This document shows positions 6,524 through 60,204 of a stretch of 64,000 nt of DNA, in pieces. This stretch comes from an uncultured Taibaiella sp. (GTDB lineage: Bacteria; Bacteroidota; Bacteroidia; Chitinophagales; Chitinophagaceae). Positions within the stretch are counted from its first letter, which is position 1, and each line of letters begins with the position of its first letter. The position numbers and the translations under genes are program-made. The stretch spans positions 36,346 to 100,345 of the forward strand of contig CAYUXT010000004.1 in assembly GCA_964448955.1 (NCBI GenBank), read 5' to 3'. Under the pieces are notes generated by a model. It was not told where the DNA came from. It was given only the letters and a program-made list of their open reading frames with translations, and did not search any database.

Positions 6524-7087
6524 TTAACAGAATTGATGATGATTAGAATTATAATCGGAATTGTGATTTTTAATATGATAGAAAGACCCCTCAGCCCTTT
6601 TAAATACGATAAGTATATTACCTGCTTTTTTAATGCCAATTCTCATTAACAGATGCAATATTTTTTTACACAAAAGAAGTAAAAGTCTAAATTTACCAAA
6701 AGGAACTGCTTTAAAAGCATTAAGTAAAGTTAAATTAGTAGTTTGGTAATAATTTTTCATATTCTCTGAATGTTCCGGTTTAGATGCTTCATCTATATTA
6801 ATACTATCTATAATTTTAACTACAAAATCAAACATTCCTCGTAAAGTCATAAATTGCTTTTCTACAATAGGAGTGAAGTTGTTAATAATAGCATTAGTAT
6901 AATCAATAAAATATCTTTTATCAGCTTCATCTTCTCTATTATCGATATAGTCTAATATTGCTTTATGTCTTATTGCCCTTAATTTATATAAAGTATTAAA
7001 CGTATAGTATTGTTTTCTGTATGTATAGTTAATGTATAATACAAGAATACTTATAATTAGTGTAAATACAATTAATGCTGTCATCAT
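6524..7087 (-). CDS. hypothetical protein with N-terminal TM helix
   Basis: 187-aa track ORF. The N-terminus MMTALIVFTLIISILVLYINY is hydrophobic. No motif recognised. Confidence 0.4.
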   Translation of the reverse strand: MMTALIVFTLIISILVLYINYTYRKQYYTFNTLYKLRAIRHKAILDYIDNREDEADKRYFIDYTNAIINNFTPIVEKQFMTLRGMFDFVVKIIDSINIDEASKPEHSENMKNYYQTTNLTLLNAFKAVPFGKFRLLLLLCKKILHLLMRIGIKKAGNILIVFKRAEGSFYHIKNHNSDYNSNHHQFC

Positions 7088-7106: not shown

Positions 7107-7377
7107 TTATTTTTTAGAGGTCGCTTGTTTTTCTTTATAACGTAGGTTTTTATCTACATATTGCAAAAGGCGTTCTCTTAACTCTGTATTTGCATTCTCT
7201 AATCGGGCTATTTCTTTGTCTTTTGATTTAAGTAAATCTTCTTGCCCATTTATATTGAATAATGCAAATTAAAATAGTAGCAAATAATATTACTGTTAAA
7301 AATGGTCCGTACTTAGTATAAACTTCTTGCCAATCAGGTATATTATCAGTTATAGAGTTTAAAAAAAGAGGAATCAT
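7107..7377 (-). pseudogene. possible frameshifted small TM + coiled-coil gene
   Basis: My translation from the ATG (revcomp of 7375-7377) gives MIPLFLNSITDNIPDWQEVYTKYGPFLTVILFATILICIIQYKWARRFT and then a stop. A shifted frame continues NGQEDLLKSKDKEIARLENANTELRERLLQYVDKNLRYKEKQATSKK to a stop at 7107. Neither piece reaches 60 aa, so neither is in the track. Confidence 0.25.
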
Positions 7378-7506: not shown

Positions 7507-7549
7507 CCTCCCCTTTGGGGAGGTTAGGTTGGTTAACACAATACCTAAC
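7507..7549 (-). terminator. two adjacent hairpins downstream of the 7572-8643 operon
   Basis: CCTCCCC-TTT-GGGGAGG (7507-7523) followed by GTTAGGT...ACCTAAC (7523-7549). They sit 23 nt past the stop of the 182-aa ORF. There is no clear U-tract. Confidence 0.35.
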
Positions 7550-7571
7550 GTCCCCAAAAGTAAAGGTGCTG

Positions 7572-8120
7572 TTATTTAGTTTTATCTTCCGGATATGATA
7601 CTTCTGTATTAACTTTATCCTTATATTGTTCATAGAACGTTTTTACCATATTTATGTTTTGATGGTCTATTGGAGTTAAAATTTGAATGTTAAGTTTCAT
7701 TTCGCCATAAACTATATAATGAGTATCAAAGTTATCTAAATTGCTGCTTAAAAATTTACTATAAGCAGAATACCTTTTATTATCTTCTTCGTTTTTTTTA
7801 TCAATATCGTTAGACGCATGAAAAGCTAAAGCACAAATACAATTATTTTCATTTTGGTAAATTTTGTACACGTACAAACAAGCTCTGAAAATATGTAAAA
7901 CATGCTGCCCAGAATAATTATATCTTAAATTAAACTTAACTTTGTCGTTGCCACTATCTTTAGTAAAAAAAGATATATTGCATATATCGTAATCAAAAAT
8001 ATCAAGATATATAATAGTAGAAACTTTTGGTTTTACATAATCATACCTATAAATAAGCCTTGATTTAAAATACTCTTTATCCTTAGGCTTTTCCTTCATA
8101 ATGAATGTAAGTCCATCCAT
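7572..8120 (-). CDS. hypothetical 182-aa protein; candidate toxin partner of the upstream Panacea-domain protein
   Basis: Track ORF starting 4 nt downstream of the DUF4065 gene, on the same strand. Lys/Asn/Tyr-rich (MDGLTFIMKEKPKDKEYFKSRLIYRYDYVKPK...). No motif I can place. Confidence 0.5.
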   Translation of the reverse strand: MDGLTFIMKEKPKDKEYFKSRLIYRYDYVKPKVSTIIYLDIFDYDICNISFFTKDSGNDKVKFNLRYNYSGQHVLHIFRACLYVYKIYQNENNCICALAFHASNDIDKKNEEDNKRYSAYSKFLSSNLDNFDTHYIVYGEMKLNIQILTPIDHQNINMVKTFYEQYKDKVNTEVSYPEDKTK

Positions 8121-8124
8121 TTAT

Positions 8125-8643
8125 TTAATGATATGATTGATAGTGCCCAAAAGAATTAAGCGAATTTGCCCTTGGTATGGTGCCAAAATATGTGAGTTTA
8201 AAATCTGAAGTGGTATCAGAGTTTATTTCAATAACATTATCACTTGGCTCATTTGTTAAGCAACCTAATCGACTGTTAATCCAAGGTAATTCATTATGCG
8301 TTAAATCTACTAAATCTGCTCCGCTTAGATGCCCATAGGCATTCCATACTTCATTTAAATGATTTTGAACATGTGAAGGTAGATGAGCACTGTATATAGA
8401 GTTAAGAATTCTTTTCGGAATTATATCGCTACGCCGCATATATCTAAAGTAATTCCAAACATCTTTAATAACAGGTCCATAAATCCAAGCTTGGATTTCA
8501 TTGTTAAAAAGAGTATGTCTATGTTTAACAAAGTACCAAACCTGTGTATAGTAGAGTAATTTATGTAGCTGCAAAGGTGTTACTCCCTTATTAATAAAGA
8601 AGGGAGCAATACTAAGAGCGTTGTATTTATGAAAGATAGACAT
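8125..8643 (-). CDS. DUF4065 / Panacea-domain protein (SocA/GepA-like, putative PanA antitoxin)
   Basis: 172 aa. The core LQLHKLLYYTQVWYFVKHRHTLFNNEIQAWIYGPVIKDVWNYF matches the remembered DUF4065 pattern (KLQKLLYY..gw.l......lf.e.feAW..GPV....Y). Confidence 0.7.
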   Translation of the reverse strand: MSIFHKYNALSIAPFFINKGVTPLQLHKLLYYTQVWYFVKHRHTLFNNEIQAWIYGPVIKDVWNYFRYMRRSDIIPKRILNSIYSAHLPSHVQNHLNEVWNAYGHLSGADLVDLTHNELPWINSRLGCLTNEPSDNVIEINSDTTSDFKLTYFGTIPRANSLNSFGHYQSYH

Positions 8644-8798
8644 AGGTAAGCATTTTAGGCAACAACGAATAATAATGTGTATTATTGTATTATTAATGAC
8701 TAATAATTGAATTACTATTGACTAATATTTAGCGACAAAGTTAAATTATAATTCAAATTATGCAAGTTAAAGCGAAATTAATTATCTTTTTAACTAAA

Positions 8799-8829
8799 AA
8801 AATATCCCTTAAATCATAAGGGATATTTT
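8799..8829. terminator. hairpin separating the 8869-9120 gene from the Panacea cassette
   Basis: AAAATATCCCTTA-AATCA-TAAGGGATATTTT: a perfect 13-bp stem with A/T runs on both sides. A second hairpin TTGTTGGTG-TTAT-CACCAACAA lies at 8844-8865. Confidence 0.5.
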
Positions 8830-8868
8830 AATTTCAAACGCCTTTGTTGGTGTTATCACCAACAACCC

Positions 8869-9120
8869 CTATTCCGTCCTTATCATTAGCCACTCCAAAG
8901 TTAGCGGTCTTATTTCTACATAAGCATATTTTTTTTCGTGTAGATACTCTATAATATCTACTTGGTTATAATCTGCCGACGGAAACTCTAATTGTAATTT
9001 TTCGAAAAGCTCTAAAGAAGCAAACCTTACTACACCATCTCCCATAGTATATGCAGGCTTATAGTGTTTATCTAAAAATTGAAATGCCCTATTGCGCATT
9101 GTAATTGTATGTTCTGCCAT
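8869..9120 (-). CDS. hypothetical protein
   Basis: 83-aa track ORF, 12 nt downstream of the AntA-like gene. No motif recognised. Confidence 0.4.
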   Translation of the reverse strand: MAEHTITMRNRAFQFLDKHYKPAYTMGDGVVRFASLELFEKLQLEFPSADYNQVDIIEYLHEKKYAYVEIRPLTLEWLMIRTE

Positions 9121-9853: not shown

Positions 9854-10774
9854 TTAATAATTTATACTTTTCAAAAAATCTTCTTCCGATAATATTTCAA
9901 TTTCAATGCCCTGTTCTTTAAGTTGTAGTGCTCTTTCTTGCTTATTACTCATCCCATCATCACCTACTATCCTATAGTCTTGCTGTCCAACAATTAAGAA
10001 ATTAGTTTTTTTGCTTACCGAATTAGAATTAATACCACCAATGTCTGCTATAATTTTCTGTGCTTCCGGTCTGCTCATCGAGCTTAATAATCCTGTAAAT
10101 ACAATAGATTGTTGATAAAATATACTTTCGCTATCAAATTTTGTAGGGTCGCCTTCAGGTGGCAATAGCTTTTCATAATTTCTTTTTCTTTTTGTAGTAG
10201 CTGGAGTGTATCCATTGGAGTATAATTTGCCTATTGTTGTTTCTAATTTGGCAGGTATATCTTCTTTACAATTTACCCCCATTTTATCAAAAGCAATTAA
10301 GCAAAGCTGTGCTAAAACTTCTGAATCTGGGGCTGCTCTATGTACTCTTCTCGGTAAATTATTAGCTTTGCAAAGTGTTTGCAAATCAAATGAAGCGGAA
10401 TTAGTCCATATTTTTTTAGAGAAAATATAACTGCAAGTATAATCCAATTCGGGATATGGCAAACTATATGTATTTAGTGTATGCCGTAATACACTAAAAT
10501 CGAAGGCAGCATTATGAGCTATTAATAGATTGCCCTCTATTAATTCTTTTACTTCGTCCCATATTTCAGAAAATTCTGGTTTATTAGCAACGTGAGTAGC
10601 GGTAATGCCGTGCAGTAAAGAATTAAAGTAATCAAAGTCGTTAATGTATGGTTTTATTAACCAAGATTTTGTTTCAATAATCTTGTTATTATCAACAAAA
10701 GTTAAGCCTAATTCGCAGGCAGAATTGCGCCGATGCTGACTTGCTGTTTCAAAGTCAATTGTAATAAATTTCAT
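9854..10774 (-). CDS. DnaQ/DEDDh-type 3'-5' exonuclease fused to a C-terminal BRCT domain
   Basis: 306 aa. Exo motifs: FITIDFETAS (Exo I), LIAHNAAFDFSVL (Exo II), HRAAPDSEVLA (Exo III, DEDDh). The C-terminus SIVFTGLLSSMSRPEAQKIIADIGGINSNSVSKKTNFLIVG is BRCT-like. Confidence 0.75.
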   Translation of the reverse strand: MKFITIDFETASQHRRNSACELGLTFVDNNKIIETKSWLIKPYINDFDYFNSLLHGITATHVANKPEFSEIWDEVKELIEGNLLIAHNAAFDFSVLRHTLNTYSLPYPELDYTCSYIFSKKIWTNSASFDLQTLCKANNLPRRVHRAAPDSEVLAQLCLIAFDKMGVNCKEDIPAKLETTIGKLYSNGYTPATTKRKRNYEKLLPPEGDPTKFDSESIFYQQSIVFTGLLSSMSRPEAQKIIADIGGINSNSVSKKTNFLIVGQQDYRIVGDDGMSNKQERALQLKEQGIEIEILSEEDFLKSINY

Positions 10775-11781: not shown

Positions 11782-12546
11782 ATGCAAGCAGTTCAACTGG
11801 TTATGAATTATAACCGAAAAGTAACAACTACATCAAAGCTAATAGCAGATGCTTTTGAAAAAAGACATGATAATGTCTTGAGGGATATTCAAAATTTGGA
11901 ATGTTCCGATGAATTTAGACTCCTCAATTTTGAGGAGTCCTCCTATATAAATAGTCAAGGGAAAAAAATGCCATTTTATTTCATTACAAGAGATGGATTT
12001 ACTTTATTGGTAATGTCCTTTACTGGTACAAAGGCTACAAAATTTAAAGAAGCTTTCATTAAGCAGTTTAATTTAATGGAAGAAGCCTTACGAAATCAAG
12101 AAAAGGAAAGAACGCCTAATCTTATCCCAACTTATCAGCAACGCATATTAAGCGAGCCTACCAAATCGTGTCCGGACGATAGATGGAATATATTCGACCA
12201 ATCGCACGAAATTATGCTATTTGTAGAAAAGCATATAGGGAGCGTAAATAAATTCGACTTAGTTGATGGAAGCATCGGCAGGCTCTGGAGTATTTATAGA
12301 AGAGACAAAAAGTGGGCGACAGTTGTTACCCAATATTACCATCACTATAAAGATAAAAGAGGTAAGCAATTGTCTAATTGTTATGATTATTCAGAATTAA
12401 AGTATTTTAAAATTTGGCTTAAAAACGATTATAAATTATATCATTTAGGAGATTATCTAATTAATAAATTTAAAAAAGAAAAAAACACAAGGCTGTTAGA
12501 AAAAGCTAATAATCTAATGCCAACAATGCATAAAAAAGCAAGTTAA
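11782..12546 (+). CDS. Rha-family phage regulatory protein
   Basis: 254 aa. The N-terminus VTTTSKLIADAFEKRHDNVLRDIQNL...FYFITRDGFTLLVMSFTGTKATKFKEAFIKQFNLME matches the Phage_pRha pattern from memory. Confidence 0.7.
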   Translation: MQAVQLVMNYNRKVTTTSKLIADAFEKRHDNVLRDIQNLECSDEFRLLNFEESSYINSQGKKMPFYFITRDGFTLLVMSFTGTKATKFKEAFIKQFNLMEEALRNQEKERTPNLIPTYQQRILSEPTKSCPDDRWNIFDQSHEIMLFVEKHIGSVNKFDLVDGSIGRLWSIYRRDKKWATVVTQYYHHYKDKRGKQLSNCYDYSELKYFKIWLKNDYKLYHLGDYLINKFKKEKNTRLLEKANNLMPTMHKKAS

Positions 12547-54201: not shown

Positions 54202-57200
54202 CTACTCTACTTTTAATATCTCACCGCTACTATGTGCTGTAAACTCCGGTGCATACATACATTGAATATTGGCTATGCCGCTGCTATAAGTTCCTTTTGC
54301 ATTTGCATATACTACATACTCCAATACATAAGTCCCTTTGCTCAAATTATCCACAAAGAAATTGGTACTTATATCTTTAGTGGACTGATAATACCCTAAA
54401 GCACCTTTGTAGTGATATTGGCTCAAAACATCTTTGGGTTCAAAACAAGCTGCACGCGTATCCTTAATATGTACATACTCTAAATCTCTATCTGATGTTA
54501 CCGTAATTCTAACCACAACTTTATCGCCAATATGGATTGGTGTTTTGGAAGTAATAGCATTTAGTACTTCGCCTTTGGTAGTATTGGTAGCTTTAAATAT
54601 TTCTTTTTGAATTTTTAAGGAAGTATTGGCATTGGTAATTTTATCGTATTGCTCAAAATACTGCCAATACACTGCTCCCCAAGATGGCAATGCTGCATTA
54701 TTATCTGTTACTGTTACTTTAATATTACCCATTTGAGTATTTACTGCTTTTCCTTCGATATTGGCAATAAAATATCCTGTACCGGCTTGTTGTTTTATGT
54801 TTTCAGATGCAATGTTTTTATCGCCAATCTGTATATTCACTTTTGCTTGTTGGTCTAAAATATTAGTATTATCTGCCAATAAAGCATAGCAGGCTTCTAC
54901 TGTAGCTTTGGTACTGTGCCATCTGTTGGTTTGTTTGTTTTTGATGAGCCAAGTTTGCATTTGTGCTATTTCATTAGCTTTTTTATCTATTTTCTTAAAT
55001 GCCTGAATGAGTATTGCTTGTGTTTCTATCGGTGCTTCGTACCAGCCATAATAACCCGATTGGTATTTCCAATACATTCCCATTTCTTCGTTTATTATGG
55101 CTCTTTGGCGCAAACTTTCGATAATAGTTTTGGCGGTAGTTTCTTGTTGATTGGCGTACAAAATTTCTGCGATATAAGCCTGCATCATTAATCCTTGTGT
55201 GTTCCAATATTGTTTTACTTGCGAGAGATAATATTCGTATTCCTTCTTGTGCTTTGTGGGTATATTTTGCTTGCTTAAACTAAATGCGTAAAGATATTGT
55301 ATGGTTGATGGCGACAAATTATTTTGGTCTAATTTTATTTTACGATTTATCAAATTTTGATAATCATCTACCATTTTGGACTCTAAATATTGCATTGCTT
55401 TTTGGATAATGCTTTGCGCCTCCGTTTCTTTGGCAATGGCAATATTTTTGTCTTGCATTTTTAATAAACCCAACGCTATGGTTTGCGTAATATACCTGTT
55501 CGGGTACATACCTTCGAACCAAGAGAATGCACCATTAGACAATTGTTTTTTCTCTAATTGTTTTAGCGTTTTATTTACATCTCTGCTTAGTTTTTGGGTT
55601 TCAAACAAGGCTGCAATGCGTTGCTTTTGTGCGGTTTCGTCTTGTGCTTCCAATACCCAAGGTGTTTCTTCTAAAAGAGCAGATTTTAACTGTTCGTTTT
55701 TTTGTAGATTAGATATTAACGCAGCCATATCTTTCGTCTGCCATTCGTTGAAAATCTTTTCTATTTTGGGTGTTTTCTTTACTATATCTGCGGCTATGGC
55801 ATTACCATAAAATCTGCTAAATACTTGCTCTGCACAATCGTAAGGATAAGACGCTAAATAAGGCAATGCCTGCACCACATACCAAGTAGGATTAGCGGTA
55901 TATTCTACGGTTAGTCCTTTGTGCAAAAGTGTTTTGCTATTGGCATTTAATAATTTGTTGAAAGTAAAATCTTTGTTGCCGTTACCGAGCATCGGCAAGG
56001 GCAACGTTTCTGTAACCAACATACGATTAGTAATAACAGGAATGTAATGCTCTTCACCATCGGTATGATTGCCTGCTTGCGCCATAATACGCAGTATTAC
56101 CGGCTCGTAGATACTTTCGGGAATGTGGATATTCCAACTTACTTCTTTGCTTTGTCCGGCAGGGATAGATATGAGTTGTTTGGTATTTTGTAGTCTGAAA
56201 GGCAATGCCAAAGACTGTAATGTTTTTGCATTTAGTATTTCTACCCAAGTTTCGGCTTGAATGTTTTCGTTGGTAAGATTTACTATTTTAGAGCTTAATG
56301 TTACATCGTCCATTTGGCGGAACACTCGCGGAATATTAGGCTGCACCATAAGGTCTTTTTGGGTTTTTACCTCGCCTTCGAGATAGCCTATTTTCCAATC
56401 TTTGGTATGGGCAAAAGTTCGCCAACGCCAAGAAGTAAGTGCTTCGGGCATCGTAAATTCAAAGCTCACATCGCCATTAGCATTGGTACGTAATTGTGGG
56501 TAGAAATATGCCGTTTCATTGAAATTGGTACGCGGCGAAAAGGAAGTGTTTTCTGCTTTGTCATTTTCTCCTTCAACAGTAGGTTCAAGGAGCGTCATGT
56601 GTCTTGGGCTAAGGCTAACATCGGCAACTTTCTCTTTTCTAACGAATTCATTTCCACTCATTGGTGCAAAACCACTTGTATTTCTATCAGAAACTGCTTT
56701 ATTAGCAAGTATAGATTTAGCTCTTTTCTTATAATATTCAGTTACCTCTGGAGACCCGTCGCTATATCTATAAATATCTTCATCATAATTAATTCTAAGT
56801 TTAGGAATAGCATAAATATCATAATAAGGAGTATTAAATTCGGCAATTGAAAATAACTTTTCGTCTTTATATACATTAATCCAAGTTCTACCCCATTTGC
56901 AATCATTAAAATTACTCTTTATATATACGCCCAAAACTCCAGTCATTAGATTGTTAAAATCCCAATTGCTTTTGTACAATGCATCTAAAGAAGCATCGTA
57001 CATACCGGCTAAAAATTCCGTTTGAAATATCTTACTTTTTTCTCCTGTAATATTATAAGACCATTTTTCCTTGCTACCTGGTAGTAATTTACTACGTTCT
57101 GTCAATAATTTAATTTGCAAATCTTTATTGTTAAATGGAATTTTTACAAATTTTTTCGTTTCGTAAATACGATTATCTTTAATGAAATAACTGACATAAT

Positions 57201-60200
57201 GTATTCCTCCTCTTTGTCCTTCAGTTACTGTAAAATTCATCATATCTTTTACCGAACCCTCTTCCAGAGCTTTAAAAACAGTATGCACTTTTGCATCATT
57301 AGCTTTTGTTAATACTTTAGTTTTAAGTTGGTCGCCGGTGTATGCTATTTCTCTGTTGGTAACAATGGCAATATCTTTTTCTATTTTGCTGTTCCAATCT
57401 ATAATAGCGTGTGTATAGTATTTTTGAATTACTTCTTGTCCTTTGGCATCTTTGGTTTTGATATTTACCAAATACCAACCATTTTGTGGAAATGCTTTAA
57501 GCGCCATTAAATCCAAAGCCTGTTTACCACTATATGTTTTAGTAAAAGTGGTGTGCAATTCTTTCCAAACTTCTTTATCGTTTTCGTTTTTATAGACATC
57601 GTTTGGAAAGTATGTTTTAAAAGTAGGTTCATCATAAAGAAATTGGTCTGGAGTTTCCCAAAGTCTTGATTTTAGTAATTGTTTGGGAGCATCTAATTTT
57701 ACTACGCTAAAAGTATATTCGTTTGGAATTTCAATATTATTTACGTTGGTAACTTTTACGGTTATATTCTTTAAATCTTCGGTAGTAATATCTTCGCGTA
57801 TATTGGCATCAACTAAAGCATCTCTGTATGCAGCACTTACCGATTGAGTAAATTCGTGAGTTTCGCCATTTTGGTCTGTAATTTTTACATTAATGGTGTA
57901 TGTAAACACAGGAAATAATTCGGGATTAGTATTGTCGGGAATGGCATTAAAAGAGATAGTATATTTGCCTTGTTCATCTGTAATTGTGCTACCTACATTT
58001 ATTGTTTCGCTACTATTATTCAACATTGGATACCAATAACATCGCCAAGGGAAAGGAAACCTAACATTTCTTACTATCGAATATTCAACTTTAGCGGCAT
58101 CAATATTATTACCTGCAGAAGACTTTACTTGCCCTTTTACATTTACTAAATCATTTACAAAAAAATCGCCTTTTAGGGTATCAAATTCATTAAAGAATTT
58201 AGGTCGTTTGTACTCTTCTATTTGAATGGATTTAGACTCATTGCCATTAATTTTAACTAAATAATTTCCTGTAAAACCATTTTCGGGAGCAATAAAGCTG
58301 CCTTGTACACTGCCAAATTCATTAGTGGTTAATTCTATACTTGTTTCGGGAGTGCCTCCATAACTATACCTCGTCAAGATTACTTTCACTTTTTTGTTAG
58401 CAACAACTTCTGTAACATTATTAGGTTTTTTGTTTACTACAATACCTTTAAAATAAATGGTTTGACCAGGTCGGTAAATATCTCTATCGGTAAATATAAA
58501 AGCATTGCGCTTTTCTGAATTTTCAATTTCTTTATAAAAAGACAAATTAGCCTGTTCGGTTAATTTATCATCTTTAAAACTGATTAACATTTTATCAAAA
58601 CTATAATTGATGGACTCATCTAATTTAATTTCACCTTTATCATTAGTAGTAAAGGATTTATTTATATTGTCTTTATAAAAAGAAGAAAATTTAATTGTTG
58701 CATTAGGTAAGGGTGTTCCTATTGTTCTGTCTAAAATTTTAATGGTGTTTCCTGCTCTAAGATAAGCTATGTTAGAAACTTGAAATTCTAAATCTACCCA
58801 ATTGTAATAATCTATTACCTCTTGCTGTGGTGATAGAGATATTATGAAATACCTGCCCATTGGTAAGGCATCAATTTTAAATTCTACTCTATGATGCATT
58901 AAATCTTCTGTGCCGGGTAAATCAATAGAATATTGTTTAATTGCCTTTTGATTCGAAACTCTTTTCTTGTAATTTTCATAGCTTTCATTTTTATTTTGTT
59001 CTAAATAAGGTACTATTGCTAACTCACAATGTTTTATATTTTGATATTCTAAAAGTATTTTAAATGGAGTTTCCGGTAATACTACATTTTCTCCTTTAAT
59101 ACTAAAATATTCAGCTTTTAAGTTAGCAATAGATTCATACAAATCGTTACTTTCTTTGGTATTCGGAAATTTATATATCAACTCTTCGTATTCTTTTACC
59201 GCATCAATCAGTTGAATGGTTTTATCTTGTAATTCTTGAGCAATATTGTAATGTCTTGCTTTAGCTGAAATGGATAAATGTGCATAGTGGAGAGCTAAGT
59301 TATTTACGATTGTGGCTATTGTCTTTTTTCCAAACACAAAATTATCCTTAAAAAACATAATTCTATTCCAATCTGTTTCGGCTAATTTTTCGGTGTTTTT
59401 ATTATTTAGATAATACTCTGTAAGTAACTGAAATGCTTGTATGGTTTGCTTTTTAATGTCTATATTGTTTTCATCTGATGCAAACTTTTTATCTATAAAT
59501 ATTTTATGCTGTAGCGTAAGCCAAGAAGTATCAACGGTTCTGTATTGCTTAAAATCTTGAGAAAAATAATCAATATTTTGTTGGTTAAATTGTAGGTATT
59601 GCTTTAATATAAACTCGTATAAATTACTATAGTCCGTTTTTCCGGTTTGGTTAATTTCTAATAAAAGGGAATTGTATTGTTCTATTGGCGTTTTAAGCAA
59701 TTCGGCTTTATAGCTCAGTGTTTTGTCGAACAGTTTATAAATAGTATCTACAAATTGGGTTTCTGTCCAGGCGGTAGGTTTTAATGTTTCGTTGGCTGTG
59801 CTAACTTTGGTTCTTTGTATTATGTTCCATCTATCTTGCCCAAAATACTGTGTATAAGAAACCGCTTTAATAGCAGTTACCAATGCTTTATCGGTATTAT
59901 TGTACGCAACTGCATCTAACGATTCTAATAATTCAAAAGCATCTTCTTGGTTTTCTGTTTTATTGATTTTTAGTTGTATTTGACGAACAGATGCGTTCAG
60001 GTATTCTGCATTGTTTTTTTCTTTTTTGGCAAAATCTAAAATTTGCTGAACAGTCTTTGCTGCTTGTTGTTCCAAGCCATTATCCATAAGGCTGTCGTAT
60101 TGCTCCCAGAGTTGTTTGTATAGTTGATTTTGTGCCATAGATGTTATAGAGTTAAAACTTGCAATAAAAATCAAGATTGCAATTCGTATTTGGGTTGTGT

Positions 60201-60204
60201 TCAT
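54202..60204 (-). CDS. bacterial alpha-2-macroglobulin family protein with intact thioester motif
   Basis: 2000 aa with a signal peptide. Thioester CAEQ in LASYPYDCAEQVFSRF, encoded at 55825-55836. Multiple MG-like repeats. The C-terminal region is typical of A2M receptor-binding-like ends. Confidence 0.85.
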   Translation of the reverse strand: MNTTQIRIAILIFIASFNSITSMAQNQLYKQLWEQYDSLMDNGLEQQAAKTVQQILDFAKKEKNNAEYLNASVRQIQLKINKTENQEDAFELLESLDAVAYNNTDKALVTAIKAVSYTQYFGQDRWNIIQRTKVSTANETLKPTAWTETQFVDTIYKLFDKTLSYKAELLKTPIEQYNSLLLEINQTGKTDYSNLYEFILKQYLQFNQQNIDYFSQDFKQYRTVDTSWLTLQHKIFIDKKFASDENNIDIKKQTIQAFQLLTEYYLNNKNTEKLAETDWNRIMFFKDNFVFGKKTIATIVNNLALHYAHLSISAKARHYNIAQELQDKTIQLIDAVKEYEELIYKFPNTKESNDLYESIANLKAEYFSIKGENVVLPETPFKILLEYQNIKHCELAIVPYLEQNKNESYENYKKRVSNQKAIKQYSIDLPGTEDLMHHRVEFKIDALPMGRYFIISLSPQQEVIDYYNWVDLEFQVSNIAYLRAGNTIKILDRTIGTPLPNATIKFSSFYKDNINKSFTTNDKGEIKLDESINYSFDKMLISFKDDKLTEQANLSFYKEIENSEKRNAFIFTDRDIYRPGQTIYFKGIVVNKKPNNVTEVVANKKVKVILTRYSYGGTPETSIELTTNEFGSVQGSFIAPENGFTGNYLVKINGNESKSIQIEEYKRPKFFNEFDTLKGDFFVNDLVNVKGQVKSSAGNNIDAAKVEYSIVRNVRFPFPWRCYWYPMLNNSSETINVGSTITDEQGKYTISFNAIPDNTNPELFPVFTYTINVKITDQNGETHEFTQSVSAAYRDALVDANIREDITTEDLKNITVKVTNVNNIEIPNEYTFSVVKLDAPKQLLKSRLWETPDQFLYDEPTFKTYFPNDVYKNENDKEVWKELHTTFTKTYSGKQALDLMALKAFPQNGWYLVNIKTKDAKGQEVIQKYYTHAIIDWNSKIEKDIAIVTNREIAYTGDQLKTKVLTKANDAKVHTVFKALEEGSVKDMMNFTVTEGQRGGIHYVSYFIKDNRIYETKKFVKIPFNNKDLQIKLLTERSKLLPGSKEKWSYNITGEKSKIFQTEFLAGMYDASLDALYKSNWDFNNLMTGVLGVYIKSNFNDCKWGRTWINVYKDEKLFSIAEFNTPYYDIYAIPKLRINYDEDIYRYSDGSPEVTEYYKKRAKSILANKAVSDRNTSGFAPMSGNEFVRKEKVADVSLSPRHMTLLEPTVEGENDKAENTSFSPRTNFNETAYFYPQLRTNANGDVSFEFTMPEALTSWRWRTFAHTKDWKIGYLEGEVKTQKDLMVQPNIPRVFRQMDDVTLSSKIVNLTNENIQAETWVEILNAKTLQSLALPFRLQNTKQLISIPAGQSKEVSWNIHIPESIYEPVILRIMAQAGNHTDGEEHYIPVITNRMLVTETLPLPMLGNGNKDFTFNKLLNANSKTLLHKGLTVEYTANPTWYVVQALPYLASYPYDCAEQVFSRFYGNAIAADIVKKTPKIEKIFNEWQTKDMAALISNLQKNEQLKSALLEETPWVLEAQDETAQKQRIAALFETQKLSRDVNKTLKQLEKKQLSNGAFSWFEGMYPNRYITQTIALGLLKMQDKNIAIAKETEAQSIIQKAMQYLESKMVDDYQNLINRKIKLDQNNLSPSTIQYLYAFSLSKQNIPTKHKKEYEYYLSQVKQYWNTQGLMMQAYIAEILYANQQETTAKTIIESLRQRAIINEEMGMYWKYQSGYYGWYEAPIETQAILIQAFKKIDKKANEIAQMQTWLIKNKQTNRWHSTKATVEACYALLADNTNILDQQAKVNIQIGDKNIASENIKQQAGTGYFIANIEGKAVNTQMGNIKVTVTDNNAALPSWGAVYWQYFEQYDKITNANTSLKIQKEIFKATNTTKGEVLNAITSKTPIHIGDKVVVRITVTSDRDLEYVHIKDTRAACFEPKDVLSQYHYKGALGYYQSTKDISTNFFVDNLSKGTYVLEYVVYANAKGTYSSGIANIQCMYAPEFTAHSSGEILKVE

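What the first reader, a model, noticed from the sequence alone, without database searches (positions are those of the whole stretch)
7507..8829. Self-contained Panacea (DUF4065) two-gene cassette whose partner is an unrecognisable 182-aa protein: candidate new toxin family
Seen: a 172-aa protein with a clear DUF4065/Panacea core (KLLYYTQVWYF...AWIYGPVIKDVW) is followed 4 nt later, on the same strand, by a 182-aa Lys/Asn/Tyr-rich ORF. That ORF has no TM segment and no catalytic motif I can name. Hairpins upstream (8799-8829, 8844-8865) and downstream (7507-7549) isolate the pair as one unit inside a phage-derived island. Established: Panacea-domain antitoxins (PanA) pair with many unrelated toxin domains (PanT) in bacteria and phages, and the partner is often novel. 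Inference: the 182-aa protein is the cognate toxin or effector, possibly of an undescribed fold.
Basis: partly seen in the sequence, partly recalled or inferred. Interest (0 to 1): 0.7.

Follow-up and report, generated by a model that had tools for sequence, protein, structure and literature searches.

The report
Prophage PanA antitoxin with T77 partner
A prophage in a Bacteroidota genome carries a self-contained two-gene Panacea (PanA) cassette whose 182-aa partner is not a new family: it belongs to a small, untested, functionally dark family already listed as predicted toxin cluster T77 in the 2022 PanAT catalogue.

Summary
On the minus strand, a 172-aa Panacea/DUF4065 protein (8125-8643; Pfam E 3.9e-19) is followed 4 nt later by a 182-aa ORF (7572-8120), and stable hairpins bracket the pair.

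The partner is not an orphan. Full HMMER finds about 29 cluster representatives, all in Bacteroidota. In 21 of 21 species-representative genomes with a close PanA (at least 48% identity), the partner lies immediately downstream on the same strand. The two proteins co-diverge (Mantel r 0.96), and the flanking genes are unrelated in 209 of 210 locus pairs. Neighbours elsewhere include AbiJ/Abi_C, TIR-TPR, Fic, IS elements and prophage genes. Isolated Riemerella phages carry a divergent copy.

"New toxin family" does not hold. Kurata et al. 2022 (Dataset S1) list this family as predicted PanT cluster T77 (F. segetis WP_072992154.1, S. spiritivorum WP_002992951.1; HHpred NoHit; not tested). The window protein matches them at E 3e-33 and 7e-25.

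What remains open is function. A confident AlphaFold model (pLDDT 94) has no Foldseek PDB match at E <= 1e-3 (best TM about 0.35). It matches only uncharacterised phage proteins (TM about 0.5).

Best reading: a PanAT-type toxin-antitoxin or abortive-infection moron. Toxicity is inferred, not shown.

The parts
8125..8643 (-). panA: a 172-aa standalone Panacea/DUF4065 protein. The Pfam domain covers residues 26-121. It is followed by a conserved, clade-specific C-terminal extension of about 50 aa.
   Evidence: ORF. PF13274 at E 3.9e-19. phrog_1281 at E 1.5e-31. The NCBIfam SocA equivalog scores only 51 bits against a cut-off of 190. Homologues in Bacteroidota are 50-60% identical. Distant PanAs match the clade profile only up to positions 118-143 of 166.
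7572..8120 (-). panT candidate: a 182-aa soluble alpha/beta protein of the T77 family. It starts 4 nt after the panA stop codon.
   Evidence: ORF. Family of 29 representatives. BLASTP E 3e-33 and 7e-25 to the two T77 members of Kurata et al.. AlphaFold2 pLDDT 94.2, pTM 0.89. It retains all family-conserved polar residues: R66, C81, D105, E112, N114, R116, Y120, N144.
8736..8743 (-). Candidate Bacteroidota-type -7 promoter box, TAACTTTG (consensus TAnnTTTG), 100 nt upstream of the panA ATG.
   Evidence: Read from the sequence and found by the motif scan. In 12 of 16 related loci the same motif sits 39-44 nt upstream of panA. The position in the window differs, so this assignment is tentative.
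8689..8726 (-). Two 16-nt imperfect direct repeats in the 5' leader, ATTAGTCAATAGTAAT and ATTAGTCATTAATAAT, with starts 22 nt apart. They are a possible operator, or chance in AT-rich DNA.
   Evidence: Read from the sequence. Not tested statistically and not seen in other loci.
7514..7558 (-). A 16-bp-arm hairpin beginning 14 nt after the panT stop codon; a likely transcript end or stabiliser. It has no T tract.
   Evidence: I1, 94% complementary. (-33.4 kcal/mol, z -4.5). Its core is unique in the window.
8799..8865 (-). Two hairpins (8844-8865 and 8799-8829, the latter followed by a T run) that terminate the upstream gene 8869-9120 and insulate the cassette.
   Evidence: terminator-like, 13 pairs plus T tract. 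(I2, I17). (z -5.0).

Best explanation
This is a PanAT-type, type II-like toxin-antitoxin or abortive-infection module, carried as a 'moron' by a Bacteroidota prophage. The two genes are co-transcribed. The transcript probably starts at the cassette's own promoter in the 225-nt spacer after the upstream terminator and ends at the 7514-7558 hairpin. PanA (standalone Panacea plus a clade-specific C-terminal tail) is made first, and the 182-aa T77-family protein starts 4 nt later. PanA binds the partner directly and keeps it inactive. When PanA is lost or triggered (for example by phage infection, loss of the element, or proteolysis), the partner acts on an intracellular target and arrests growth. 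The partner is a soluble alpha/beta protein whose conserved polar residues (R66, D105, E112, N114, R116, Y120, N144) lie mainly in the loops before helices 1 and 2. Its target is most plausibly a nucleotide-bearing or nucleic-acid substrate. SHOWN here: the domain identity of PanA; the operon-like geometry; strict co-occurrence and co-divergence of the two families; independence from flanking genes; residence in prophages, phages and defence-type neighbourhoods; membership of published predicted cluster T77; a confident fold model with no solved counterpart. INFERRED: physical binding, toxicity, the nature of the target, the trigger, and the defence role.
For: PanA identity.
Geometry: 4-nt gap on the same strand, bracketed by hairpins.
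Co-conservation: 21/21 GTDB species-representative loci with PanA at least 48% identical have the partner immediately downstream, with gaps of -1 to 42 nt; four distant PanAs do not.
Co-divergence: Mantel r 0.96, 0/5000 permutations.
Mobility as a two-gene unit: only 1 of 210 locus pairs shares any flanking homologue within 3 kb.
Context elsewhere: AbiJ and Abi_C on both sides, TIR-TPR, Fic, AAA_14, KilA-N, an integrase with an S24 repressor, IS elements, and a second PanA pair. A copy lies in an IMG/VR prophage of S. spiritivorum. A divergent copy (hhalign probability 97.7%) lies between endolysin and integrase in isolated Riemerella phages.
Asymmetric decay: the partner is frameshifted in two loci and truncated by an insertion-sequence (IS) insertion in one, while PanA is intact in all three.
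Own promoter: a TAnnTTTG box at -39 to -44 in 12/16 loci.
Literature: Kurata et al. 2022 (PMC8832971) list this family as predicted PanT T77, order A|T, not flagged as a false positive. Of their 25 tested predictions, 9 were validated TAs, 5 more were toxic, and 3 could not be cloned. Standalone Panacea can neutralise directly, and appended C-terminal elements can also neutralise (Ernits et al. 2023, PMC10440598).
Against: No experiment exists for any member of this family (LabReport 'notest').
Eight of the 25 predicted PanTs tested by Kurata et al. were not toxic in E. coli.
The charge pattern is the reverse of classic type II pairs: PanA is basic (pI about 7-9.6) and the partner mostly acidic to neutral (pI 5.0-9.1). 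This also weakens the idea of an RNA-binding toxin.
No catalytic motif of any known toxin is recognisable. There are no hits in Pfam, PADLOC, PHROGs, NCBIfam or PDB sequence profiles.
One IMG/VR contig has a close PanA with no partner.
Co-divergence proves co-inheritance, not binding.
The window's candidate promoter sits at -100, not at about -40 as in the other loci.
Confidence: 0.55

Rival explanations
1. The pair is a conserved two-gene module, but the partner is not a growth-arresting toxin. It could be a PanA-regulated phage or host-interaction factor, for example for superinfection exclusion, anti-defence, or a regulator or modifier of a phage process, with PanA acting as its sensor or chaperone.
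For: 8 of 25 predicted PanTs were non-toxic in E. coli. The partner is acidic to neutral and has no recognisable toxin motif. Structural neighbours are uncharacterised phage proteins, including domains inside larger phage proteins annotated ParB/Srx and Zeta-toxin. A phage-like contig keeps PanA alone. Ernits et al. propose that Panacea is primarily a sensor.
Against: The tight two-gene geometry, antitoxin-first order, scatter among unrelated loci and defence-type neighbours, and partner-only pseudogenisation are the hallmarks on which PanAT predictions rest. The cluster passed Kurata's reciprocity filter.
Confidence: 0.27
2. The partner is a highly derived GNAT-like acetyltransferase toxin of the TacT/AtaT/ItaT kind. 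It would acetylate aminoacyl-tRNA or another amine and be neutralised by PanA.
For: The order of secondary-structure elements from beta2 onward (three antiparallel strands, long helix, strand, helix, beta hairpin) parallels the GNAT beta2-beta3-beta4-alpha3-beta5-alpha4-beta6-beta7 core (the GNAT topology is from my own knowledge). GNATs (SpeG, PseH, RimL-like) recur among weak Foldseek hits in both libraries. The conserved N114-x-R-x-S-A-Y120-x-x-F-L at the start of helix 2 resembles the GNAT motif N-x-x-A-x-x-x-Y. The size, about 180 aa, is similar.
Against: The Foldseek GNAT matches are poor: E 0.26-2, TM 0.27-0.35, rmsd 5-9 A. No acetyltransferase Pfam hit appears for any of 29 members even at E 10. 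No PDB sequence-profile hit at E 10. HHpred 'NoHit' in Kurata et al.. There is no Q/R-x-x-G-x-G/A CoA pyrophosphate loop. The N-to-Y spacing is off by one from the GNAT motif. GNAT beta1-alpha1-alpha2 is missing.
Confidence: 0.08
3. The partner is a metal-dependent nuclease or phosphotransferase built on a half-DNase-I-like (RNase E catalytic subdomain-like) alpha/beta sandwich, with D105/E112/N114 as the metal site.
For: The best PDB match is the DNase-I-like subdomain of RNase E: 6x2d_A, E 0.012, probability 0.97, TM 0.49 normalised to the 108-aa target. Several other RNase E chains follow, and weak hits to the endonuclease/exonuclease/phosphatase (EEP) family (Tdp2, INPP5B, a viral EEP protein) recur. 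D105 (93%), E112 (84%, plus 9% D) and N114 (95%) are conserved, with conserved R66 and R116 nearby in sequence. Many validated PanTs target translation or RNA.
Against: TM normalised to the query is only 0.33 and no match reaches E 1e-3. I could not inspect residue-level superposition. The partner's acidic pI argues against a nucleic-acid binder. There is no sequence-level signal.
Confidence: 0.1

Closest known systems
Predicted PanT cluster T77 (pT99) of the PanAT catalogue, Kurata et al. 2022 PNAS (PMC8832971, Dataset S1): S. spiritivorum ATCC 33861 WP_002992953.1/WP_002992951.1 and F. segetis DSM 19741 WP_072992157.1/WP_072992154.1
   Same: The partner family is the same: full-length BLASTP at 39% and 32% identity, E 3e-33 and 7e-25. 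The PanA clade is the same (54% and 49% identity). Both have antitoxin-first order and gaps of a few nt (3 and 8 nt there, 4 nt here). PanA has no N-terminal domain.
   Different: The window copy is a divergent member sitting in a prophage of an unnamed Bacteroidota genome. The catalogue knew 2 members. The catalogue gives no structure or function (HHpred NoHit, not tested).
Experimentally validated PanAT systems (e.g. Burkholderia prophage phi52237 PanAT; B. choladocola PanT:PanA), Kurata 2022 and Ernits 2023
   Same: A Panacea-domain antitoxin gene is directly upstream of an unrelated small protein. The pair is prophage-borne. PanA is standalone, the architecture for which direct neutralisation by the Panacea domain was shown.
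   Different: The partner shares no detectable sequence or fold with any validated PanT (membrane peptides, MazF-like RNases, toxSAS, Fic/Doc, cyclase). Neither toxicity nor complex formation is shown for it.
SocAB (Caulobacter), the founding Panacea system (type VI: SocA is a ClpXP adaptor for the toxin SocB)
   Same: Both have a Panacea domain in the upstream gene.
   Different: The NCBIfam SocA equivalog model scores 51 bits against a cut-off of 190. The partner belongs to a different Kurata cluster (SocB is T10). Nothing here points to a proteolytic-adaptor mechanism.
Uncharacterised phage proteins in BFVD (A0A6J5NQJ2, H9NC91, A0A6J5LVT8, A0A7S5R4A6; domains in Agrobacterium phage Atu_ph07 proteins)
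   Same: They are the closest predicted structures: Foldseek E 7.5e-5 to 1e-3, TM about 0.46-0.57.
   Different: Sequence identity is 10-16%, the TM scores are borderline, and none has a known function. Whether they are neighbours of Panacea genes was not examined.

Membership tests
PanAT (Panacea-antitoxin two-gene loci, criteria of Kurata et al. 2022) | One gene encodes a Panacea/DUF4065 domain protein | tested here: met
   PF13274 at E 3.9e-19, 70.1 bits against a cut-off of 25.7.
PanAT (Panacea-antitoxin two-gene loci, criteria of Kurata et al. 2022) | The partner gene is within 100 nt on the same strand | tested here: met
   4-nt gap, both genes on the minus strand. Gaps of -1 to 42 nt in 21 unique loci.
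PanAT (Panacea-antitoxin two-gene loci, criteria of Kurata et al. 2022) | [quoted passage not shown] | tested here: met
   21/21 species-representative genomes with a close PanA, plus Riemerella phages and an IMG/VR prophage.
PanAT (Panacea-antitoxin two-gene loci, criteria of Kurata et al. 2022) | The pair is not part of a longer conserved operon (at most 3 genes) | tested here: met
   Flanking ORFs within 3 kb share homologues in only 1 of 210 locus pairs.
PanAT (Panacea-antitoxin two-gene loci, criteria of Kurata et al. 2022) | The partner is toxic and PanA neutralises it, as required for a bona fide TA | not testable with these tools
   This needs expression assays. No family member has been tested in the literature.
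PanAT (Panacea-antitoxin two-gene loci, criteria of Kurata et al. 2022) | PanA and PanT form a complex (type II) | not testable with these tools
   No complex-prediction tool was available. Co-divergence (r 0.96) is compatible with binding but not specific to it.
PanT cluster T77 | Sequence homology to the listed members WP_072992154.1 and WP_002992951.1 | tested here: met
   The accessions of the L015 and L029 proteins were confirmed. BLASTP E 3e-33 (39% identity, full length) and 7e-25 (32% identity).
SocAB type VI system | PanA reaches the SocA equivalog score | tested here: not met
   NF047745 scores 51 bits against a cut-off of 190.
GNAT acetyltransferase toxins (TacT/AtaT-like) | Acetyltransferase-family profile match, or a confident GNAT fold match with a CoA-binding motif | tested here: not met
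   No Acetyltransf Pfam hit in 29 members at E up to 10. Foldseek TM to GNATs is at most 0.35 with E at least 0.26. HHpred NoHit in the literature.
RNase E/G DNase-I-like catalytic subdomain | Fold match with a superposable acidic metal site | tested here: inconclusive
   Best PDB hit 6x2d_A: E 0.012, TM 0.33 (query-normalised) and 0.49 (target-normalised). Residue-level superposition was not available.
Known anti-phage defence systems (PADLOC-DB v2) | A match of either protein to a defence-system model | tested here: not met
   0 families for both proteins at E up to 1.

The most novel reading that the evidence does not exclude
The T77 partner is a genuine growth-arresting effector built on a fold with no solved representative and a biochemical activity not yet seen among TA toxins. 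With its dedicated PanA clade it would form a Bacteroidota- and phage-specific abortive-infection module that temperate phages (Riemerella phages and this prophage) use against competing phages. Orphan PanA copies in other phages (L037) would act as counter-defence antitoxin mimics.
Probability: 0.25. Interest if true: 0.65.

Novelty: new member of a known kind. Interest (0 to 1): 0.4.

Why it matters
PanAT systems are the textbook case of one antitoxin domain pairing with dozens of unrelated toxins. Most predicted partners, T77 included, remain black boxes.

This work turns a two-member catalogue entry into a defined family. The family has about 29 representatives, a conserved residue signature, a confident 3D model with no solved counterpart, strict linkage to one PanA clade with a distinctive C-terminal tail, and copies in cultivable Riemerella phages and in F. 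psychrophilum.

That makes the family experimentally tractable, in a phylum (Bacteroidota) where TA and defence biology is little studied. If the partner is toxic, it would add a new effector fold. If it is not, it would be a useful counter-example to the assumption that every gene next to a Panacea gene is a toxin.

For the window itself the result is incremental: one more member of an already predicted cluster.

Tried and rejected
1. The word-indexed protein search returned only the query itself. This would have suggested an ORFan. The exhaustive HMMER search showed that was a sensitivity artefact. Re-searching the indexed database with the family alignment still returned only 4 proteins.
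2. The single-sequence AlphaFold model was unusable (pLDDT 40). Only the MSA-based model was interpreted.
3. The search for related loci with the partner alignments failed because no stretch was conserved enough. I used the PanA alignment instead and located partners with my own HMM.
5. The following found nothing for the partner family: Pfam, PADLOC, PHROGs and NCBIfam; the PDB sequence profile; tblastn of two family members against 50,697 phage records.
6. The supplement of the NetFlax paper (Ernits 2023), as held, contains none of the T77 accessions or taxa. A full-text search for the four accessions found no other paper. A search for post-2022 Panacea literature found nothing new.
7. The Myroides locus has 187-aa and 49-aa ORFs next to the pair, the same lengths as window ORFs 6524-7087 and 7228-7377. 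This looked like extended synteny, but the proteins are unrelated. Rejected as coincidence.
8. A sigma-70 consensus scan gave no enrichment (28 sites against 20.5 expected) and is not appropriate for Bacteroidota. I scanned for the TAnnTTTG -7 box instead.
Full report
**1. The observation**

On the minus strand, a 172-aa ORF (8125-8643) is followed after 4 nt by a 182-aa ORF (7572-8120).

- The first protein is a clear Panacea/DUF4065 protein: PF13274, residues 26-121, E 3.9e-19, 70 bits against a cut-off of 25.7. It also matches phrog_1281 at E 1.5e-31.
- The second protein has no hit in Pfam, PADLOC, PHROGs or NCBIfam. It has no transmembrane-like segment (maximum 19-residue hydropathy 1.04).
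They are far more stable than shuffled sequence: downstream stretch -33.4 kcal/mol, z -4.5; upstream stretch -26.8 kcal/mol, z -5.0; 0 of 200 shuffles in both cases.
- The 8799-8829 hairpin carries a T tract. It is the terminator of the preceding gene, 8869-9120.
- The surroundings are a prophage: PhageMin_Tail tape measure, AntA, an RNase_T-BRCT protein, Rha, and a DUF927-like 778-aa protein. Host genes (Dus, a T9SS-sorted PKD protein, 2-oxoacid dehydrogenase E1) start near 16.4 kb, so the host is a member of Bacteroidota.

**2. The partner is a family, not an orphan**

The word-indexed search found only the query itself. An exhaustive HMMER scan of 1.84 billion representatives found 29 proteins at E <= 1e-3, 19 of them at E <= 1e-10. 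Nearly all are 170-200 aa and match full length at 29-43% identity.

Independently, I looked up four named Bacteroidota genomes that hold close homologues (about 55-60% identical) of the window's PanA. Each has a gene of about 175 aa with no Pfam hit directly downstream of PanA. These genes align with the window protein over their whole length.

**3.

I scanned one genome per GTDB species with the PanA alignment and recovered 25 loci. An HMM of the partner family then gave these results:

- All 21 loci whose PanA is at least 48% identical have the partner immediately downstream on the same strand.
- The four distant PanAs (29-42% identity) do not.

In 21 non-redundant pairs the intergenic gap is -1 to 42 nt, and most often 3 nt. 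Pairwise identities of PanA and of the partner are tightly correlated (Mantel r 0.96, 0 of 5000 permutations as high), so the two genes travel and diverge together.

The flanks do not travel with them. Among 21 loci, only 1 of 210 locus pairs shares any flanking homologue within 3 kb. The pair is therefore a self-contained, mobile, two-gene unit.

Where flanking genes could be named, they are typical of mobile or defence neighbourhoods:

- AbiJ and Abi_C proteins on both sides (Sphingobacterium corticibacter)
- a TIR-TPR protein
- a Fic protein
- an AAA_14 ATPase
- a KilA-N protein (F. psychrophilum)
- an integrase with an S24 repressor and an excisionase-type HTH (Myroides)
- IS transposases
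- a second, different PanA pair (Marinilabilia)

The S. spiritivorum copy lies in an IMG/VR-predicted prophage.

Isolated Riemerella phages (vB_RanS_PT33 and relatives) carry a PanA 48% identical to the window's. It is followed by an overlapping 200-aa protein that profile-profile comparison identifies as a divergent family member (hhalign probability 97.7%, E 1.9e-12). The pair sits between the endolysin and the integrase, a classic moron site.

In three loci the partner is damaged while PanA is intact. Two have single-base frameshifts, and one is truncated next to IS-type genes. This asymmetry is what one expects when the downstream gene is the harmful one. However, two of the three are short-read MAGs, and sequencing error cannot be excluded.

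One exception to the linkage exists. A 91.8-kb IMG/VR contig has a close PanA but only an unrelated 76-aa ORF downstream.

**4. Transcription signals**

A Bacteroidota-type -7 box (TAnnTTTG) lies 39-44 nt upstream of the PanA start codon in 12 of 16 loci examined. These include loci whose upstream DNA is otherwise unrelated: Marinilabilia, Ornithobacterium, Myroides and the Riemerella phage. The module therefore generally brings its own promoter.

In the window, the only such box (TAACTTTG, 8743-8736) is 100 nt upstream. It is followed by two imperfect 16-nt direct repeats (8726-8711 and 8704-8689). I treat both as tentative.

**5. It is already catalogued**

Dataset S1 of Kurata et al. 2022 (PMC8832971), sheet 'Predicted PanAT pairs (1268)', lists cluster pT99/T77 with exactly two members:

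| Genome | PanA | Predicted PanT | Predicted domain | Order | Gap | False positive | LabReport |
|---|---|---|---|---|---|---|---|
| S. spiritivorum ATCC 33861 | WP_002992953.1 | WP_002992951.1 | NoHit (HHpred) | A\|T | 8 | No | notest |
| F. segetis DSM 19741 | WP_072992157.1 | WP_072992154.1 | NoTest (HHpred not run) | A\|T | 3 | No | notest |

My loci L029 and L015 come from these same genomes. They have gaps of 8 and 3 nt, and exact look-up returns those four accession numbers.

The window protein aligns full length with both PanT entries: 39% identity at E 3e-33, and 32% identity at E 7e-25. So the 182-aa protein is a new, divergent member of predicted toxin cluster T77. It is not a new family.

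I found no later paper mentioning these accessions, and no further work on this cluster.

**6. What the partner looks like**

With a 29-sequence alignment, AlphaFold2 gives a confident model: mean pLDDT 94.2, pTM 0.89, and all five models at or above 90. It has four N-terminal antiparallel strands (4-10, 20-28, 33-42, 46-53), a 17-residue loop, a long helix (71-92), a strand (97-101), a loop, a helix (115-127), a beta hairpin (135-140, 145-150) and a C-terminal helix (156-175).

Across 43 family sequences the most conserved polar residues are:

| Residue | Conservation |
|---|---|
| R116 | 100% |
| Y120 | 98% |
| N114 | 95% |
| C81 | 95% |
| D105 | 93% |
| N144 | 93% |
| R66 | 91% |
| E112 | 84% |

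Most of these lie in the two loops that precede helices 1 and 2, which suggests a ligand or catalytic site. The window protein retains all of them.

Foldseek against 350,542 PDB chains finds nothing at E <= 1e-3. The best match is the DNase-I-like subdomain of RNase E (E 0.012; TM 0.33 on the query, 0.49 on the 108-aa target). It is followed by SpeG-type GNATs at TM about 0.3. A PDB sequence-profile search gives nothing even at E 10.

Against predicted viral structures there are six matches at E <= 1e-3, with query-normalised TM 0.41-0.50. Five are uncharacterised and one is annotated ParB/Sulfiredoxin; weaker matches (E 2e-3 to 5e-3) include three Agrobacterium phage Atu_ph07 proteins, one annotated as having a Zeta toxin domain.

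**7. Mechanism**

The best-supported reading is a PanAT-type module:

- PanA and the partner are co-translated from one transcript.
- PanA holds the partner inactive by direct binding.
- Release or activation of the partner arrests growth.
- The biological role is phage exclusion and/or stabilisation of the element that carries the module.

The genetics listed above are shown. Binding, toxicity, target and trigger are inferred from the properties of validated PanATs.

This PanA has no N-terminal domain. It does have a conserved tail of about 50 aa beyond the Pfam domain that distant PanAs lack. By analogy with the Phd-C case in Ernits et al., the tail may be the neutralising element. This is speculation.

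For calibration: of 25 predicted pairs tested by Kurata et al., 9 were validated, 5 more were toxic without rescue, 3 could not be cloned, and 8 were non-toxic.

Points against the reading:

- The charge pattern is reversed. PanA is basic, and the partner is mostly acidic to neutral.
- No toxin motif is recognisable.
- One PanA has no partner.

I put the TA/Abi reading at about 0.55 and a non-toxic functional partner at about 0.27. Two sub-hypotheses about the chemistry, GNAT-like acetyltransferase and half-DNase-I-like metal enzyme, each stand at about 0.1 or less.

**8. Verdict**

The cassette is real, and the partner is its fixed cognate. The 'new family' claim fails, because this is a new member of a published, predicted, untested PanT cluster.

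- the true size and host range of the family
- its presence in cultivable phages
- a residue signature
- a promoter signal
- a confident structure model with no solved homologue

Interest is moderate (0.4). A specialist would not be surprised by the cassette itself, but the family is now a well-defined and tractable candidate for a new effector fold.

Noticed in passing
window 11782-12546 (+): A 254-aa prophage protein has a Phage_pRha domain (E 3.8e-31). The precomputed annotation of the identical gene on contig L002 also gives it a BstA_C domain. BstA-family proteins are prophage-encoded abortive-infection factors, so the same prophage may carry a second defence gene about 3 kb from the PanA pair.
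   Followed up: partly
L037 2989-3489 (IMG/VR contig IMGVR_UViG_3300004881_000001, 91.8 kb): A PanA 55% identical to the window's has no T77 partner. An unrelated 76-aa ORF follows it instead. An orphan antitoxin in a viral contig could be a decayed module or a phage counter-defence 'antitoxin mimic'.
   Followed up: partly
L036 2498-3590 (Riemerella phage vB_RanS_PT33, ON922917.1 3293-4385); also PT03, PT15, CRP12 and a record named 'Shigella phage Henu10' (OQ791282.1): Isolated temperate Riemerella phages carry the PanA plus a divergent T77 pair between the endolysin and the integrase. Both genes are annotated 'hypothetical'. The record labelled Shigella phage Henu10 has the same PanA at the same coordinates as Riemerella phage PT15, so its name looks like a mislabel.
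   Followed up: partly
L011-L015, L020, L021, L027, about 35 to 15 nt upstream of panA: In the Flavobacteriia subgroup, a small hairpin AGCAA-GNRA-TTGCT lies directly after the -7 box, in the 5' leader. L011 has AGCGA...TCGCT, a change on both sides that keeps the pairing. It could be an operator or an RNA element. It is absent from the window copy.
   Followed up: no
L005 5944-6998 (Marinilabilia salmonicolor): A second, different Panacea pair (186-aa PanA followed by a 163-aa protein with no Pfam hit) lies convergent to the T77 pair and about 0.9 kb from it. This gives two PanA modules in one small island.
   Followed up: no
L030 1793-4955 (Sphingobacterium corticibacter); L014 4408-5637; L011 4638-6131: In L030 the pair is sandwiched between an AbiJ (AbiJ_NTD3 + Abi_C) gene and a second Abi_C gene. 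Elsewhere it sits next to a TIR-TPR protein (L014) and a Fic protein (L011). These are defence-island-like neighbourhoods.
   Followed up: partly
L017 about 3250; L025 about 3815; L023 about 3875: The partner gene is disrupted while panA is intact. L017 has a frameshift in a T run, L025 has a 1-nt indel, and L023 is truncated and followed by an IS-type HTH gene, with an IS1595 transposase upstream. Assembly error is not excluded for the two frameshifts.
   Followed up: partly
window 6524-7087 (-) and 7228-7377 (-): Two further small ORFs lie downstream of the pair, between it and the tape-measure gene. They are 187 aa and 49 aa, both with a hydrophobic N-terminal stretch by eye. The 187-aa one has no Pfam or NCBIfam hit, and it is present on the other contigs that carry this prophage. 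They may be additional morons or lysis-related genes.
   Followed up: partly
window 9854-10774 (-): A prophage gene fuses an RNase_T (DnaQ-like 3'-5' exonuclease) domain to a C-terminal BRCT domain.
   Followed up: no
window 54202-60204 (-): A 2000-aa ORF lies in the host part of the window. It was not examined.
   Followed up: no
21 PanA/partner pairs (window pair included, read from L002): The charge pattern is the reverse of classic type II TA pairs. PanA is basic (pI 6.9-9.6, mostly above 8.5) and the presumed toxin is mostly acidic to neutral (pI 5.0-9.1).
   Followed up: yes
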